Source: a virus
DNA: 64,000 nt
IMG/VR virus record: IMGVR_UViG_3300017605_001304
Location: 32,001-96,000 of that record
Strand: one strand, 5' to 3'
Below are positions 2,572-15,653 of the stretch, piece by piece. Under the pieces are notes generated by a model. It saw only the letters and a list, made by a program, of their open reading frames with translations, made no database searches and was not told the origin of the DNA. Made by a program: the position numbers and the translations under genes. Position 1 is the stretch's first letter, and each line of letters starts with the position of its first letter.

Positions 2572-5386
2572 GTGTTTTCTCCTTCAACTTCAACGTCACG
2601 GAGATCTTCTCGTAAGGCTGAACATCCTCGATGTCTTCCGTCTTGAGTGCCGGTCCCTCCTTCGTCCGGTCGTCCCGGATGCCTTCACTGACGATGTCTT
2701 CGCGCTCGATGTCGAACCAGTGTTCGATGCACGGGCGCAGGCGTACGTAGTGATCGCGATTGCCCGACAACGTGACTTCGTTGCCCGCGAGTTCGCAGGC
2801 CATGGTCGCCTGCCAGTCCCGGCCCCACTCGAACTCGACCTTGAGGCTCGCGGTCAGCCACTCGAAGCCCTTGCCGCGATCGCCCAACATCGACGTCTGG
2901 AGCAGGTCGTAGACCTGGAACAGCTCGGGCGTGTTCAGGTCGCACTCGATCGAGTCGTGGATGAACGCGAACGGCCGACTCTTGAGGCTCATCTCCACGA
3001 GCTCGCGGCGGAAGTCGACCAGGGCCGCGAGTCCAATGTCGGATGCAGGGCCCTGGATCGGGTAGTTGACCGCCGCGCGCTCCGCTTCACCCAGGCGGCG
3101 CTTCTCGTCCTGGCTCCGGTCGTGATAGCGGATCGAGTGCAGCTTCCCGTCGGGGAGCGGGTAGTAGCGCCCCGTCGGGCCGATCAAGTAGCCGTGCCTG
3201 TGCACCTGCGTGTGGCAGGCGTCGATGAACGCCTTCACCTTCGGGAAGGTCCGGAAGTACGCGTCGACCAGCGCCTGCGCGTCCTCCTTCGAGATGCCGT
3301 ACTCCAACGCGATCGCGCGGGCACCGCGGCCGTAGATGATCCCGAAGCTCACCGCCTTCGCCCGGTGCCGCTCCTCCTTCGTTACCTGCTCCCGCGGCTT
3401 ACGCAGGATCACGGAGGCCGTGTACAGGTGCACGTCCCCGCCGAACTCCTTGAAGCGCGGGTCGGTACCCGAGAGCACGGCGAGCAGGTTCTCGTCGCCC
3501 GCCAAGGCCGCCAGCACACGCAGCTCATTCTGGCTGAAGTCGGCCTTGAGGAACGAGCCGAACGTGAAGCGCGAGATGCCGGCCGACCGGATCACGGAGC
3601 CACGCGGGAAGTTCTGCAGGTTCGGATCGTTGCTGGAGAGCCGTCCCGTGACGGTCTTCGTCAAGCCGAAGTTGCTGTGAATCAGCCAGGGCAACTGCGG
3701 CGGCTCGAAGCACCTCGTCGCCCATCGCGACTCCTCCCCGCGATTCTGAATCTCTTCCAGGAGCTTCTTCACGTATCGCGTGAGCCGGGTCTTCGCGTGC
3801 CGGTGCCGGATCACGTTGATCACCGTCGTGTAGACGTCGCCACGGTCGTGGCGGTACGCCCAGCGGCCGAGCTCGATCAGCCGCTTCTCCTTGCTGCTCA
3901 CCGACTCCTCGCCCGCCTCGTTCACGGTGGGGCAGCCCAACGTCCGATAGAGGAACGACGAGACGTGGCGAGCCGACACCGGGTTCAGCGTCGGGGCCAA
4001 GCCCTTCTTGTTCTTGGGCGCGACCTCTGCCATCCAGGAGGTGTGCTGCGGCAGGGCGCGAATCGTCTTCGCCGTCGCCGCCATCACATCCAGGTACAGC
4101 GGCTCCAGCTCGGCGAGGCGCTTGGGGTCGAGCAAGATCCCGTCGCTCTCCATCGCCGCGAGCGTCCGCCACGTCCCCATGTAGAAGCGCTTGAAGGTCG
4201 ACAGCCGGTCCGCCTGCTTCAGCTTCTCTTTCAGCATCGGGTAGAGGCGCAGCGTGGCGTCTGCGTCTCGACAGCCGTATTCCACGAGCTCGTCCATGGC
4301 GGTGCTCGCCATGGTCTGCCCCTTCAGCGCACCTTTCATCTGCCGCTTGTACGGCGGGAATCCAAGGTAGGCCGAGGACAGATAACCCAGGCTGGCCGGG
4401 CGCGAGCCCCCTGTGAGGCAGTGCTGCGCATACATCGTGTCGAAACGGACGTTCCTCGTTTCGATGCCCAGCTTGGAATACAGCCACTTGTGATCGAACG
4501 AGTAGTTATGTCCAACGACCGGAATGCCGGATTCCAGAAGGAACTTGATGTTGCGTTGGAACGAGGCCGCGCCGTCCACGGTGGTGAATGCCCGACCCAT
4601 CAGGTCATTATGGAACAGCGGGATCAGGGCCGCCTGCCCTGTGCCCCAGGCGATCTGGATCGAGACAATCGCCGCCTTCGGGTCGAAGGCGTGGAGTCCG
4701 GTCGTCTCCAGGTCGACGGCGATCGCGCCATGTTGCAGGCGCTTGTCACGGCAGTCCGCGATCAAGCGATCGACCAGCTCATGCAGGTCGCGCTTCTTCG
4801 TGATCAAGCGGTAGTCGACGGGCGCGTTGACCGTGCGGTGGTACTGCATGCGGGCGATCTGGAGGTCGCCCACAATCGCCGCACGGGCTTCGAGATTGCC
4901 CCGCAAGACGAAGGCGGGGTGATACGTCGGGATGACCGGAATGCCCTTGTACTGCGTGATCTGCCCGTGCAGCGTCCCCATCGCCGCACGCAGCCCGAGC
5001 AGGGACTTCGTCGCGACCGCGCCGAGACAGACGATCGCCTTGGGGCGGACGTGCTCGATCTCTTCGTCCAAATACGGTCGGCACTTCGTGAGAGCGTTAT
5101 CGGACGGACGAATCGTCTTGCCGTGGTCGTCGCTCGGCCAGCAGCGGACCGCGTTGGTCCACCGAACGTCCGCCTCGGGTATGCCCGCTTCCTTCAGCAT
5201 CTCGTCGAGGAGCTGGCCGGAGGGGCCGATGAACGGCGTCTTCGCTTCGTTCTCTTGAGGACCCGGCGCTTCGCCGACGATCAGGAGCTGGGGCCGGTCC
5301 GAGCCCCGTGGGTGTATCAGTGCATTGGCTTTGACGCAGAGCTCACACCGCTCGCAGTCGCGAGCGAGGTAGGCCGGAAGTGACAT
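2510..5386 (-). CDS. DNA polymerase family A with N-terminal family-4 uracil-DNA glycosylase domain and 3'-5' exonuclease
   Basis: UDG-F4: CERCELC, VGEAPGPQE, NAVRCWP, TYHPAFVLR. Exonuclease: DLETTGL, HNYSFD, YGCRDAD. PolA: TVTGRLSSNDPNLQNFP, ADFSQNELRVLA, RHRAKAVSFGIIYG, ERAAVNYPIQG, FIHDS. Start placed at MSLPAY (5386). Confidence 0.95.
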   Translation of the reverse strand: MSLPAYLARDCERCELCVKANALIHPRGSDRPQLLIVGEAPGPQENEAKTPFIGPSGQLLDEMLKEAGIPEADVRWTNAVRCWPSDDHGKTIRPSDNALTKCRPYLDEEIEHVRPKAIVCLGAVATKSLLGLRAAMGTLHGQITQYKGIPVIPTYHPAFVLRGNLEARAAIVGDLQIARMQYHRTVNAPVDYRLITKKRDLHELVDRLIADCRDKRLQHGAIAVDLETTGLHAFDPKAAIVSIQIAWGTGQAALIPLFHNDLMGRAFTTVDGAASFQRNIKFLLESGIPVVGHNYSFDHKWLYSKLGIETRNVRFDTMYAQHCLTGGSRPASLGYLSSAYLGFPPYKRQMKGALKGQTMASTAMDELVEYGCRDADATLRLYPMLKEKLKQADRLSTFKRFYMGTWRTLAAMESDGILLDPKRLAELEPLYLDVMAATAKTIRALPQHTSWMAEVAPKNKKGLAPTLNPVSARHVSSFLYRTLGCPTVNEAGEESVSSKEKRLIELGRWAYRHDRGDVYTTVINVIRHRHAKTRLTRYVKKLLEEIQNRGEESRWATRCFEPPQLPWLIHSNFGLTKTVTGRLSSNDPNLQNFPRGSVIRSAGISRFTFGSFLKADFSQNELRVLAALAGDENLLAVLSGTDPRFKEFGGDVHLYTASVILRKPREQVTKEERHRAKAVSFGIIYGRGARAIALEYGISKEDAQALVDAYFRTFPKVKAFIDACHTQVHRHGYLIGPTGRYYPLPDGKLHSIRYHDRSQDEKRRLGEAERAAVNYPIQGPASDIGLAALVDFRRELVEMSLKSRPFAFIHDSIECDLNTPELFQVYDLLQTSMLGDRGKGFEWLTASLKVEFEWGRDWQATMACELAGNEVTLSGNRDHYVRLRPCIEHWFDIEREDIVSEGIRDDRTKEGPALKTEDIEDVQPYEKISVTLKLKEKTLGARSTGRVEVDASPAVCNQ

Positions 5387-5414
5387 GAGTGGTTCCAGAC
5401 TGGGTGAGGCACGG

Positions 5415-5798
5415 TCAGACCCACTCGCCGAGTGGACCGAGGCTCTCGCGAGCGAGCACGACGTCGAGCGTGCTCGGGTAGTAGTGCGTGCTGTCGTAGA
5501 CGCACGTGAGACAGATACAGTCGGCCTCGTGGAGATCCTCCGCCGTCGCCTGCGGCAGCCCCTCCTCACGGCGCAGGTCGCGCCGCTGCTGGTAGAGCGA
5601 CCGTACGGTGTCGAGGATACGGCGACGGCCGACGGCGACGGCCAGGGCGGGTGGAGGGGGACCGGCCTTCACGGCCCGTTTCACGATCCCGAGATACGCT
5701 TCCTGGAGCAGGTCTTCGATATCCAGCGGGTGTCCGCGAACGCGGCCCGCGGCGAACTTGCGCAGTGACGTGCAGACCTGTACCGAGAACGCATCCAT
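5415..5798 (-). CDS. Sigma-70 region-2-like protein lacking region 4
   Basis: DIEDLLQEAYLGIVK ... AVGRRRILDTVR resembles ECF sigma region 2; 127 aa with no C-terminal HTH; SD GGGAGGTG upstream. Confidence 0.5.
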   Translation of the reverse strand: MDAFSVQVCTSLRKFAAGRVRGHPLDIEDLLQEAYLGIVKRAVKAGPPPPALAVAVGRRRILDTVRSLYQQRRDLRREEGLPQATAEDLHEADCICLTCVYDSTHYYPSTLDVVLARESLGPLGEWV

Positions 5799-5826
5799 CG
5801 CTCACCTCCCCTTGGTAGCTCAGCCC

Positions 5827-6324
5827 TCAGTCGTCGTCGCTGTTCGAGGGTCCGTCGTCTTCCTCTTCGTCCTCGTCCTCTTCCTCGTCGTCGTCCGCGA
5901 TCACGGGCGACTGTGCGAGGCGAGGCGGGTCGTCGTCATCGTCGTCGGGCGTGCTGGTGCCCGGCGGAGTCGCGACCACGACCGACGTCCCCATGCTGGC
6001 GCCGTGCGCCGGGGACGTTTCGTCCGGCTCGTCCTCATCGACATCGAGCGGGACGTCGTTCTTGCTGTAGTGCGTCTGGATGCACCGGTAGCCGTTGATC
6101 CGCGAGTAGAACTCGACGATCTTCCGATGTCGACTCTCGCGCTCGATACAGAGCTCGTTCTCTGTCACCGAGAGGACGGTTCCCTGGATCTTGACGTCCG
6201 CCTGACTCGTTCCGTGGGGCACCAGGGTGATCCCGGTTCCCACCAGCTCTTCGAGCTTCGTAGGCTTCTTGGCTGGTACTGCTGCCGTCGCCGCCTTCGG
6301 ACTCGCCCCCCTCGGACGTGCCAT
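5827..6324 (-). CDS. Hypothetical protein: small beta-rich domain plus very acidic disordered tail
   Basis: Strong SD (GGAGGAGG) before ATG at 6324; KIQGTVLSVTENELCIE core; D/E-rich C-terminus. Confidence 0.7.
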   Translation of the reverse strand: MARPRGASPKAATAAVPAKKPTKLEELVGTGITLVPHGTSQADVKIQGTVLSVTENELCIERESRHRKIVEFYSRINGYRCIQTHYSKNDVPLDVDEDEPDETSPAHGASMGTSVVVATPPGTSTPDDDDDDPPRLAQSPVIADDDEEEDEDEEEDDGPSNSDDD

Positions 6325-14142: not shown

Positions 14143-14280
14143 TCAGCGCCTCCAGAGTCTCCGTTTCGGAGTTACTCGTTTGAGCTCAGCACGAAGCAAC
14201 TGCAGCTCGGCCTCACGCTTCACGATTTCGAGCTTGAGCATCAGCCGTTGCTCATCCGGCGTCAGGTAGTCCGTTGTCAT
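14143..14280 (-). CDS. Small coiled-coil protein (45 aa)
   Basis: Manual translation MTTDYLTPDEQRLMLKLEIVKREAELQLLRAELKR...; fills the gap exactly and has an SD. Confidence 0.45.
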   Translation of the reverse strand: MTTDYLTPDEQRLMLKLEIVKREAELQLLRAELKRVTPKRRLWRR

Positions 14281-14500
14281 CGTGACTCTCCCCCGGTTCG
14301 TCGAGCTGGGCCTCGCAGTACCGCGCGAGCTGCATCGACAGGCCGTAGCAGGTGAACACGTTGCCGTAGATGAACGGCCAGCTCGCGTCGGACTCGGCGT
14401 CGTGGTTCAGCGTCAGGTGCAGCACGATCGCCTCGGAACGTCGCGCCAACGCCTTCGCGAGATCCTCCGTCGATACGAGATCGAGCTCGTCGTCGGTCAT
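14252..14500 (-). CDS. Hypothetical protein
   Basis: MTDDELDLVSTEDLAKALARR...; SD GGGAGG. Confidence 0.6.
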   Translation of the reverse strand: MTDDELDLVSTEDLAKALARRSEAIVLHLTLNHDAESDASWPFIYGNVFTCYGLSMQLARYCEAQLDEPGESHDDNGLPDAG

Positions 14501-14589
14501 AGTCCCTCCCAAAGAACATGGGCCCGCAGAGTCTTTCGACCCTACGGGCCCATTCCGGGCCTCCACCAACCGTCTCAGACTCGGCTGGT

Positions 14590-15330
14590 TTAGTTCATCA
14601 CGACCTGCTTGTCGTACTCGCGGTCGACCCACCGGATCTCGCCGCGTTCCAGGCGCTCTTTCTCGCCCTGGTTCCACGCCGGCCGGTTCGCCCGCTTCAA
14701 GACGTCGTCCTCGTCGTGCATGAGAGCCAGCGCCAGCGCGCCGACCCGGTCCTCGACCGGGTACTGGAAGCTCGCGTGCATGCAGAACTTGTCCTTCGGC
14801 TTGCCGTCGTGGTCGAGCAGGTAGAGCTCGCCGCCGAAGCCGGGGTTGATCTCGAAGATCCCCGCCTTGCCGCGGTAGCGGACGATCTTCTTCGTCCGCC
14901 AGTCGCGCATCTGCTCCTCGGAGAGGATGAGCGACAGCATCTGCTCGGCGGTCTGCCGCTGCTTGCGGCGCTTCCACCGACGCTGGACCTTCGCCCGGCG
15001 CTGCTCCTCCGCCGTCGGCGGGACGTACACCTGCTGGTTGACCTGCTGATGGTTCCAGTGCTGCGTGTACCGGATCTGCCCGGTCCAGTTCGACCAGATG
15101 ATCCCGGCGTTCGTGACGGTGACCGTGGACGCCCCGCTCTCCCCGTACGTAGCGTTCGTCCAGGTCTTCCAGACGATGGGCGCGCTGATCGTCGTCGCGC
15201 TGCCGGTCACGTAGTTCCAGTTGTTCCAGACCGCGTTGGTGTACGTGATGCCGCCCGTGACGGACGTGACGGACGTGTCGGAGTCCGTGTTGTATCCCGT
15301 GCCCCCGCTGGTTGCCGCGTAGTACGGCAT
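14590..15330 (-). CDS. Hypothetical protein with C-terminal Cys/His domain, partner of the Gly-Gly-ending protein
   Basis: T/W/N-rich N-terminal repeats (W..W..), then AEQMLSLILSEEQ...KFCMH...PVEDRVGALALALMHDEDDVLKRAN. Confidence 0.7.
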   Translation of the reverse strand: MPYYAATSGGTGYNTDSDTSVTSVTGGITYTNAVWNNWNYVTGSATTISAPIVWKTWTNATYGESGASTVTVTNAGIIWSNWTGQIRYTQHWNHQQVNQQVYVPPTAEEQRRAKVQRRWKRRKQRQTAEQMLSLILSEEQMRDWRTKKIVRYRGKAGIFEINPGFGGELYLLDHDGKPKDKFCMHASFQYPVEDRVGALALALMHDEDDVLKRANRPAWNQGEKERLERGEIRWVDREYDKQVVMN

Positions 15331-15333
15331 CGC

Positions 15334-15609
15334 TCAGCCGCCAACGACCGCCGCGGCCATGATGACCGCCTTCGCCTCGGGGTCGAACTTGCGCATGACC
15401 TCGGCCTTCTCGCCGCTCTTCTTCACGGCGTAGCCGACCATGCCGCGCTTCACGCAGTCGTCGAACGTGCGGCGCGCCGTCTCGGTCTCGTCCTGGTTCT
15501 CCGGATCCCAGATGACCTTCACGTCACCGGCGCTCGGATCCATGTAGCGGAGTACGTGCGGCTCCTTCGAAGCCGCGCTCTCCTCCAACATCTGCAACGT
15601 CCCAGGCAT
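15334..15609 (-). CDS. Small protein with C-terminal Gly-Gly (candidate ubiquitin-like modifier)
   Basis: 91 aa, ...GDVKVIWDP...ARRTFD...GMVGYAV...MRKFDPEAKAVIMAAAVVGG-stop; SD AGGAG. Confidence 0.7.
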   Translation of the reverse strand: MPGTLQMLEESAASKEPHVLRYMDPSAGDVKVIWDPENQDETETARRTFDDCVKRGMVGYAVKKSGEKAEVMRKFDPEAKAVIMAAAVVGG

Positions 15610-15653
15610 CGCTCGTGCTCCTTCTGGTAAGTCCGCTCCTCCGAGCGGAGTGC

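What the first reader, a model, noticed from the sequence alone, without database searches (positions are those of the whole stretch)
14590..15609. Gly-Gly-terminated small protein paired with a Cys/His protein: possible minimal ubiquitin-like conjugation module
Seen: a 91 aa protein ends ...FDPEAKAVIMAAAVVGG-stop. Three bp downstream begins a protein whose C-terminal domain holds its only Cys in KFCMH followed by P-x-x-D and DE...AN. No E1/ThiF, E2 or JAB gene is visible in this window. Established: a C-terminal GG is the reactive end of ubiquitin, ThiS/MoaD and SAMPs, and bacterial Ubl systems act in phage defence. Inference: a two-gene modifier plus ligase/peptidase pair, or a decoy against host Ubl-based immunity.
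Basis: partly seen in the sequence, partly recalled or inferred. Interest (0 to 1): 0.75.

Follow-up and report, generated by a model that had tools for sequence, protein, structure and literature searches.

The report
Phage ubiquitin-like GG protein, cysteine partner
This uncultured phage carries a tightly coupled gene pair found in hundreds of other phages: a small ubiquitin-shaped protein that nearly always ends in a free Gly-Gly, and a partner with one never-changing cysteine, with no activating enzyme in the phage, so it may be an undescribed minimal protein-tagging kit, though its chemistry is untested.

Summary
The 91-aa gene (15609..15334, minus strand) ends VVGG-TGA. The 246-aa partner starts 3 nt later and has a single Cys.

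The GG end is not chance. An exhaustive search found 787 relatives, and 138 of the best 150 end exactly in GG. Most of the other twelve carry GG plus a short extension; five end in AG. The tail length is fixed in 193 of 201 members.

The partner family lies downstream, on the same strand, in 65 of 67 informative loci. Cys183 and Asp194 are invariant in 108 of 108 sequences.

No ThiF-type E1 or JAB peptidase was found in this record or in five near-complete phage genomes that carry the pair. Neither family has a Pfam, PHROG, PADLOC or PDB sequence match. No paper found describes the pair.

I could not confirm an E2-like fold for the partner. The GG tail was not confidently docked.

Best reading (about 0.45): a phage ubiquitin-like modifier that reacts covalently with its cysteine partner. 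Activation would come from the host, or without an E1 as in E2-CBASS.

Earlier notes of this scan report the same pair on at least six other phage genomes.

The parts
15334..15609 (-). Gene for the 91-aa GG-terminated beta-grasp (ubiquitin-like) protein. G90 is 15340-15342, G91 is 15337-15339, and the TGA stop is 15334-15336.
   Evidence: ORF and sequence. 787 relatives, of which 138 of the best 150 end in GG. AF2 core pLDDT 80-98 with a bb-a-bbb order. Beta-grasp structural matches.
15618..15623 (-). Shine-Dalgarno AAGGAG, 8 nt upstream of the ATG of the GG gene
   Evidence: Read directly from the sequence.
14590..15330 (-). Gene for the 246-aa partner. Its ATG lies 3 nt after the TGA of the GG gene, in the same frame.
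   Evidence: The partner family lies downstream of the GG gene in 65 of 67 informative loci.
15031..15330 (-). Partner N-terminal region (about aa 1-100). It is rich in Thr/Ser/Asn/Gly and holds three [AI][VI]WxxW repeats. It varies in length and sequence among homologues.
14926..15012 (-). Charged linker helix (about aa 107-135 of the partner)
   Evidence: AF2 helix at residues 200-228 of the read-through model.
14647..14919 (-). Conserved partner C-terminal domain (about aa 138-228), ordered helix, four strands, two helices. The invariant Cys183 (14782-14784) ends strand 4, Pro191 (14758-14760) lies in the loop that follows, and Asp194 (14749-14751) lies at the start of the long helix.
   Evidence: AF2 pLDDT 82-97. 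C183 and D194 in 108/108, P191 in 98/108, E207 in 102/108, N215 in 100/108.
14518..14553 (-). Terminator-like hairpin (16 pairs) directly after the partner gene, followed by the SD and ATG of the next gene
   Evidence: sequence.

Best explanation
The pair is a phage-borne, two-gene ubiquitin-like module. The 91-aa protein is a beta-grasp domain. Its fixed-length tail (II[ML]-x-P-x-x-x-G-G) presents a free Gly-Gly, as ubiquitin does. The partner's conserved C-terminal domain uses its invariant Cys183, helped by the invariant Asp194, to form a covalent acyl (thioester) intermediate with that glycine. It then passes the small protein to an acceptor. The acceptor could be the partner itself or a protein bound by the partner's variable WxxW-repeat N-terminal region. 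No E1 is encoded by the phage, so activation must come from elsewhere. Either a host ThiF/MoeB-type E1 adenylates the tail, or the cysteine attacks a peptide bond at the glycine without ATP, as the lone E2 of E2-CBASS does. Shown here: the conservation of GG and of the tail length, the gene linkage, the invariant Cys and Asp, the beta-grasp-like model, and the absence of E1 and JAB in near-complete genomes. Inferred: every chemical step, the acceptor, and the biological role. The position of the pair beside replication genes suggests early or middle expression; I did not test this.
Confidence: 0.45

Rival explanations
1. The pair is a non-covalent complex. The beta-grasp protein is an adaptor or chaperone-like subunit whose fixed-length GG tail plugs into a pocket of the partner, as MoaD does in MoaE. 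No conjugation occurs. The cysteine is structural or binds a ligand.
For: Gene linkage and translational coupling fit a stoichiometric complex. No E1, E2, E3 or deconjugating enzyme was found. No enzyme fold was recognised for the partner.
Against: A single Cys and a single Asp invariant in 108/108 very divergent sequences is more typical of catalysis than of packing. Variants with residues or a whole domain after GG suggest that the Gly-Gly end is processed or chemically used. The tail was not confidently docked in the model.
Confidence: 0.2
2. The pair is a decoy or inhibitor aimed at host ubiquitin-like immunity (Bil, Bub, type II CBASS). The phage GG protein would occupy the host E1/E2, or the cysteine partner would act as a deconjugating peptidase that strips host Ubl or CD-NTase conjugates from phage proteins.
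For: The pair is phage-borne, widespread and single-copy, with no E1 of its own. Host Ubl systems are known to target phage proteins (PMC10557695 and PMC10097602, listed; abstracts only were read). Members with C-terminal extensions would need a GG-specific peptidase.
Against: There is no match to any known deubiquitinase, JAB, ULP or papain-like family or fold. The host is unknown, so the presence of such defences could not be checked. A decoy would not obviously need an obligately linked partner.
Confidence: 0.15
3. The pair is a sulfur-carrier system of the ThiS/MoaD/TtuB type. A host MoeB/ThiF enzyme would convert the GG end to a thiocarboxylate, and the partner's Cys would take part in sulfur transfer to a nucleic-acid or cofactor substrate.
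For: A beta-grasp protein with a hydrophobic tail ending in GG is the hallmark of sulfur carriers. The pair lies beside replication genes, the DnaB-like and SF2 helicases.
Against: No member matched Pfam ThiS PF02597. No ThiS, MoaD or Urm1 chain appeared in the top 50 of any fold list, whereas ubiquitin, SUMO, RBD and PB1 types did. No sulfurtransferase, rhodanese or PP-loop partner is linked.
Confidence: 0.1

Closest known systems
E2-CBASS of Serratia marcescens (lone E2 acting on the CD-NTase C-terminus; bioRxiv 10.1101/2022.05.25.493364; PMC12948482)
   Same: It is a two-component system without an E1. A small cysteine enzyme acts on a conserved glycine at the C-terminus of its operon partner. 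That enzyme is shown to cleave what follows the glycine and to form thioester and isopeptide bonds. This gives a working chemical model for an E1-less pair.
   Different: There the substrate is a 400-aa cGAS-like enzyme, not a beta-grasp protein, and the system is bacterial defence, not phage-borne. Its E2 resembles human UBE2D2 (RMSD 2.5 A by the authors), whereas no E2 match was found for the partner here. Most members here end in a free GG rather than Gly plus a leaving residue.
Bacterial Ubl operons: Bil (BilABCD; PMC10557695), Bub (PMC11601596), type II CBASS Cap2/Cap3 (PMC10097602)
   Same: A small beta-grasp Ubl or a C-terminal Gly is used with a cysteine (or serine) carrier enzyme, in the setting of phage-host conflict.
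   Different: Those operons encode an E1, and usually a JAB or serine peptidase, next to the Ubl and E2. Neither is present here. They are host defences, whereas this pair is carried by phages. There is no sequence match to their PADLOC models.
ThiS/MoaD/Urm1/SAMP/TtuB sulfur carriers and modifiers (Pfam PF02597)
   Same: They are beta-grasp proteins of about 70-100 aa with a hydrophobic last strand and a C-terminal GG. They are often encoded without an adjacent E1 and with a partner that receives the tail.
   Different: There is no HMM match. The structural neighbours are of the ubiquitin, RBD and PB1 types rather than ThiS or MoaD. The linked partner resembles none of MoaE, ThiG or TtuA by sequence.

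Membership tests
Ubiquitin-like modifiers (beta-grasp Ubl) | Beta-grasp fold (bb-a-bbb with a mixed sheet) | tested here: met
   [not shown]
Ubiquitin-like modifiers (beta-grasp Ubl) | Exposed C-terminal Gly-Gly on a flexible tail | tested here: met
   138 of the best 150 relatives and 204 of 223 non-redundant members end in GG. The tail length is fixed in 193 of 201. Tail pLDDT is under 50.
Ubiquitin-like modifiers (beta-grasp Ubl) | Activation by an E1 (ThiF-family adenylating enzyme) | tested here: not met
   No PF00899 match in this 149-kb record or in five module-bearing phage genomes rated 90-100% complete. Two large GenBank phages have a ThiF gene about 59 kb from the pair. Use of a host E1 cannot be tested with these tools.
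Ubiquitin-like modifiers (beta-grasp Ubl) | Covalent attachment to targets | not testable with these tools
   This needs biochemistry or mass spectrometry.
ThiS/MoaD sulfur carriers (PF02597) | Match to the family HMM | tested here: not met
   No match for the window protein or for any of 109 family members.
E2 / UBC-fold conjugating enzymes (UQ_con, Prok-E2, RWD/UEV clan) | UBC-type alpha/beta fold | tested here: inconclusive
   The model of the partner C-domain is ordered helix, four strands, long helix, helix, with pLDDT 82-97. That order is compatible with a UBC-like layout. No E2, UBC or RWD chain was listed.
E2 / UBC-fold conjugating enzymes (UQ_con, Prok-E2, RWD/UEV clan) | Invariant catalytic cysteine after strand 4 | tested here: met
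   C183 is present in 108/108 sequences and lies at the end of strand 4.
E2 / UBC-fold conjugating enzymes (UQ_con, Prok-E2, RWD/UEV clan) | HPN motif before the Cys, or a match to a family HMM | tested here: not met
   The usual motif is C-x-H-P, with His after the Cys and present in under 60% of sequences. No E2 family appeared among the 25 families shown (of 32 matched at E<=1) when 52 partners were scanned against Pfam, and none among PADLOC hits. There is no UQ_con match in the record.
E2-CBASS | Lone E2 with a CD-NTase substrate that bears the conserved C-terminal Gly | tested here: not met
   No CD-NTase is linked; the linked protein is a 75-100-aa beta-grasp. No PADLOC match. Only the E1-less, glycine-directed logic is shared.
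Bil / Bub / type II CBASS operons | Co-encoded E1 and a deconjugating peptidase | tested here: not met
   Clustering of neighbouring ORFs found no third conserved gene.

The most novel reading that the evidence does not exclude
Phages carry their own self-sufficient, E1-independent ubiquitin-like tagging system. The partner's cysteine would attack the Gly-Gly end directly, using the terminal Gly or a natural extension as the leaving group. It would then transfer the beta-grasp tag onto host or phage proteins chosen by its variable WxxW-repeat domain. That would be a previously unknown, two-protein route to protein conjugation, spread across hundreds of phage lineages.
Probability: 0.15. Interest if true: 0.9.

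Novelty: new variant of a known kind. Interest (0 to 1): 0.75.

Why it matters
Ubiquitin-like conjugation in the phage-bacterium conflict has so far been studied as a bacterial defence (Bil, Bub, type II CBASS). Here the logic sits on the virus side, as a two-gene unit with at least 787 sequence clusters. It has no family name, no structure, and no paper that I could find. If the pair forms covalent adducts, it would show how small a ubiquitin-like system can be, and whether E1-free chemistry of the E2-CBASS kind is more general. It would also point to phage proteins that tag, or shield against tagging by, host immunity. Even if the pair is non-covalent, it is a large unnamed phage protein family with a clear motif that can be tested.

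Tried and rejected
- **First searches blank.** Word-indexed homologue searches of both proteins found only themselves. The first viral-contig scans found nothing. Only the exhaustive HMMER search revealed the family.
- **Failed alignments.** Alignment A1 was too divergent for pattern scans, and so was A4. Block alignments A5, A6 and A7, which mixed GG rows with partner rows, were misaligned by MAFFT and discarded. One row in A6 was my own frame error.
- **Bacterial genomes.** The genome-contig scan found no relative among species-representative genomes. This is limited by the single peptide pattern used, so it is no evidence of absence. 'Relatives' are not available for a virus record.
- **Partner C-domain fold.** It did not surface in any fold list, so it stays unclassified. 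That E2 chains are not listed does not exclude an E2-like fold.
- **Agrobacterium phage Atu_ph07.** Its structural look-alikes in BFVD were not confirmed by the family HMMs.
- **Expression.** No RNA holder was listed for the stretch, and read laying was not used.
- **Read-through.** TGA read-through as a natural fusion is rejected. The relative frame of the two genes varies among loci.
- **Extra domains.** A DUF6197 domain after GG in P0052, and HerA-like N-termini in P0018, look like neighbouring genes or rare fusions and explain nothing.

Full report
**1. The observation**

The window is bases 32001-96000 of a 149,155-bp IMG/VR virus record. The record is linear, about 70% complete, and has about 65% G+C.

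Both ORFs of the finding lie on the minus strand. The small gene runs 15609..15334. Its ATG is preceded by AAGGAG at 15618-15623. It encodes 91 aa ending ...FDPEAKAVIMAAAVVGG, followed by TGA.

The partner ATG is at 15330, three bases after that stop and in the same frame. It encodes 246 aa with a single Cys (C183, DKFCMH), then P191-x-x-D194 and DE...AN.

A 16-pair hairpin at 14553-14518 follows the partner. Downstream on the same strand lie an SF2 helicase and a DnaB-like helicase. Upstream are two ORFs of 172 and 321 aa with no family match.

**2. The GG end is a family trait, not chance**

Pfam and PHROGs gave nothing significant for either protein. Word-indexed searches found only the proteins themselves.

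An exhaustive phmmer search against 1.84 billion cluster representatives found 787 proteins at E<=1e-3 and 57 at E<=1e-10. Almost every alignment ran to the last residue of both sequences.
- Of the best 150 hits, 138 end exactly in GG.
- Several others end in GG plus a short extension: GGV, GGI, GGC, GGL, GGG, GGANG, GGAHAV, GGRWPR.
- Five end in AG.

In 223 non-redundant members, 204 end in GG. The distance from the conserved FDP motif to the end is 17 residues in 193 of 201. Pro sits at position -6 in 158 of 204. The consensus is GD.K..WDP.N.DEV..A...F..L..KG..AY.V...G.KGE....FDP.AE.II..P...GG.

None of 109 members has a significant Pfam or PHROG match. A profile of the family finds no solved structure by sequence.

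**3. The two genes are almost always linked**

I fetched three sets of loci:
- 9 IMG/VR loci;
- 78 metagenome loci;
- one locus of a 595-kb GenBank huge phage, LR756511.1.

An HMM of the partner's C-terminal domain finds an ORF downstream of the GG gene, on the same strand, in 65 of the 67 loci that have enough downstream DNA. Some loci are the same phage sampled twice. The two genes usually overlap as ATGA or lie 0-5 nt apart. In a minority, one small ORF is inserted between them: a Zn-finger-like ORF or a 128-169-aa ORF.

No other neighbour is shared. A deposited phage, Virus Rctr197k (KX853510.1), carries the pair annotated as hypothetical proteins. The pair is single-copy in this record.

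**4. The partner**

Its N-terminal part, about 100 aa, is a Thr/Ser/Asn/Gly-rich region with repeated [AI][VI]WxxW motifs. This part differs in length and sequence in every homologue. A charged helix follows, and then a conserved domain of about 100 aa.

In 108 non-redundant sequences that are only about 20-30% identical:
- Cys183 and Asp194 are present in 108/108;
- Leu201 in 104, Glu207 in 102, Asn215 in 100, Pro191 in 98;
- the His two residues after the Cys is present in under 60%.

There is no Pfam E2, peptidase or other match, no PADLOC match, and no PDB sequence match. Nine of 52 partners carry the phage Zn-finger domain PF24623.

**5. Structure**

The single-sequence model of the small protein was mediocre (pLDDT 62) and matched nothing informative.

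I therefore folded the TGA read-through product (339 aa, P0198). The alignment was a clean block alignment of 14 in-frame pairs, including the window's own read-through product, plus 70 GG-only rows and the partner alone (A8).

The result:
- **GG domain:** pLDDT 80-98 over residues 20-89. Strands are at 18-24, 28-34, 57-62, 70-72 and 81-86 around helix 39-54.
- **Tail:** G90, G91 and the junction are below 50.
- **WxxW region:** pLDDT 40-57.
- **Partner C-domain:** pLDDT 82-97. The order is helix 231-240, strands 243-246, 251-254, 262-265 and 271-276, then helices 285-306 and 314-321. The last strand ends at the invariant Cys.

The scores are modest but the lists are uniform. I take the beta-grasp fold as supported.

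No E2, UBC or RWD chain, and no peptidase, was listed for the partner C-domain in any search. Its fold is unclassified here. I cannot confirm the 'E2-like' label given in earlier notes of this scan. The strand order and the Cys at the end of strand 4 are compatible with such a fold, and no more than that.

**6. No activating or deconjugating enzyme**

ThiF, Prok-JAB, ThiS and UQ_con HMMs find nothing in this record. Five module-bearing phage genomes rated 90-100% complete by CheckV (47-96 kb) have no ThiF and no Prok-JAB. The 595-kb and 197-kb GenBank phages each have a ThiF gene, but about 59 kb from the pair.

**7. How it most likely works**

The data fit a ubiquitin-like protein whose fixed-length tail delivers a Gly-Gly end to a cysteine on an obligate partner.

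The chemical problem is activation, and there are two routes. In the first, a host ThiF/MoeB-type E1 adenylates the tail. In the second, the cysteine attacks a peptide bond at the glycine.

The second route has a published precedent. The lone E2 of E2-CBASS works without an E1. It removes the residue, or even a fused MBP or GFP, that follows a conserved C-terminal Gly of its partner. It then forms interconvertible thioester and isopeptide bonds (bioRxiv 10.1101/2022.05.25.493364; PMC12948482).

Some family members here have residues or a whole domain after GG. Under that scheme they would be natural substrates. For the majority, the terminal Gly itself could be the leaving group. This last step is my inference.

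The variable WxxW region is a candidate acceptor or target-binding module.

The rivals are not excluded: a purely non-covalent complex, a decoy or deconjugase aimed at host Ubl immunity, or a sulfur carrier. I put the covalent Ubl-plus-cysteine-partner reading at about 0.45.

**8. Comparison with what is known**

The closest known systems are E2-CBASS (E1-less, glycine-directed cysteine enzyme), the Bil, Bub and type II CBASS operons (Ubl or Gly tail with E1, E2 and a peptidase), and ThiS/MoaD-type carriers. The pair is a member of none of them:
- no HMM of those families matches;
- E1 and peptidase are missing;
- the substrate differs from that of E2-CBASS.

Three literature searches found no paper describing this pair. 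Public records call both genes hypothetical.

Earlier notes of this scan report the same kind of pair on at least six other phage genomes. I used those notes as leads only. My own tests agree on GG conservation, linkage, the invariant Cys, the beta-grasp shape and the missing E1. They do not reproduce the E2-like fold or a docked tail.

**9. Verdict**

The feature is real, strongly conserved and undescribed. I class it as a new variant of a known kind, the ubiquitin-like modifier systems. What is new is that it is phage-borne, has two genes, and lacks an E1. Its function and chemistry are untested. Interest: 0.75.

Noticed in passing
[not shown]
   Followed up: partly
window 15328-15342 (-): The GG gene and the partner are in the same frame, separated only by TGA-GCG. 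Thirteen of the fetched loci are also in frame with one stop between the genes, but other loci use ATGA overlaps or other frames. Read-through fusion is therefore not a conserved feature.
   Followed up: yes
L024 3001-3549 and L025 3001-3534; also L021, L070: These are natural variants in which the GG is not terminal. L024 and L025 have GG followed by a domain of about 100 aa with no Pfam match. L021 has GG plus 12 aa, and L070 has GG plus AS. P0055 and Rctr197k_113 are tandem double-domain forms; the latter ends in PG.
   Followed up: partly
L002 5288-5584, L010 about 5231-5524, L004 5231-5617, L079 717-1226: Small ORFs are sometimes inserted between the GG gene and the partner. One kind is a CxxC-rich Zn-finger-like ORF; 9 of 52 partners carry PF24623 Phage_zn_bind_8. 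The other is a 128-169-aa ORF family seen in 6 loci, with no Pfam match.
   Followed up: partly
LR756511.1 280703-281230 and KX853510.1 177035-177406: The two large GenBank phages that carry the pair each have a ThiF-family gene about 59 kb from it. Whether it serves this pair or another Ubl system was not examined.
   Followed up: no
L092 (KX853510.1) 1324-1578 and 5249-5986: Virus Rctr197k has an annotated CRISPR repeat region about 1.2 kb upstream of its GG gene. It also has a second, GG-less paralogue of the cysteine domain (Rctr197k_110) 1.2 kb downstream of the partner.
   Followed up: no
window 14252-14509 (-) and 14518-14553: The hairpin after the partner gene is followed directly by GGGAGGG and the ATG of an 85-aa acidic ORF. 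It may act as an attenuator or processing site rather than a full terminator.
   Followed up: no
BFVD hits A0A2L0UZL2 and A0A2L0UZP9 (Agrobacterium phage Atu_ph07, MF403008.1): Structural look-alikes of the partner (prob 0.99) and possibly of the GG protein (prob 0.91) exist in a cultured jumbo phage. The family HMMs found nothing in its genome, so the relation is unconfirmed.
   Followed up: partly
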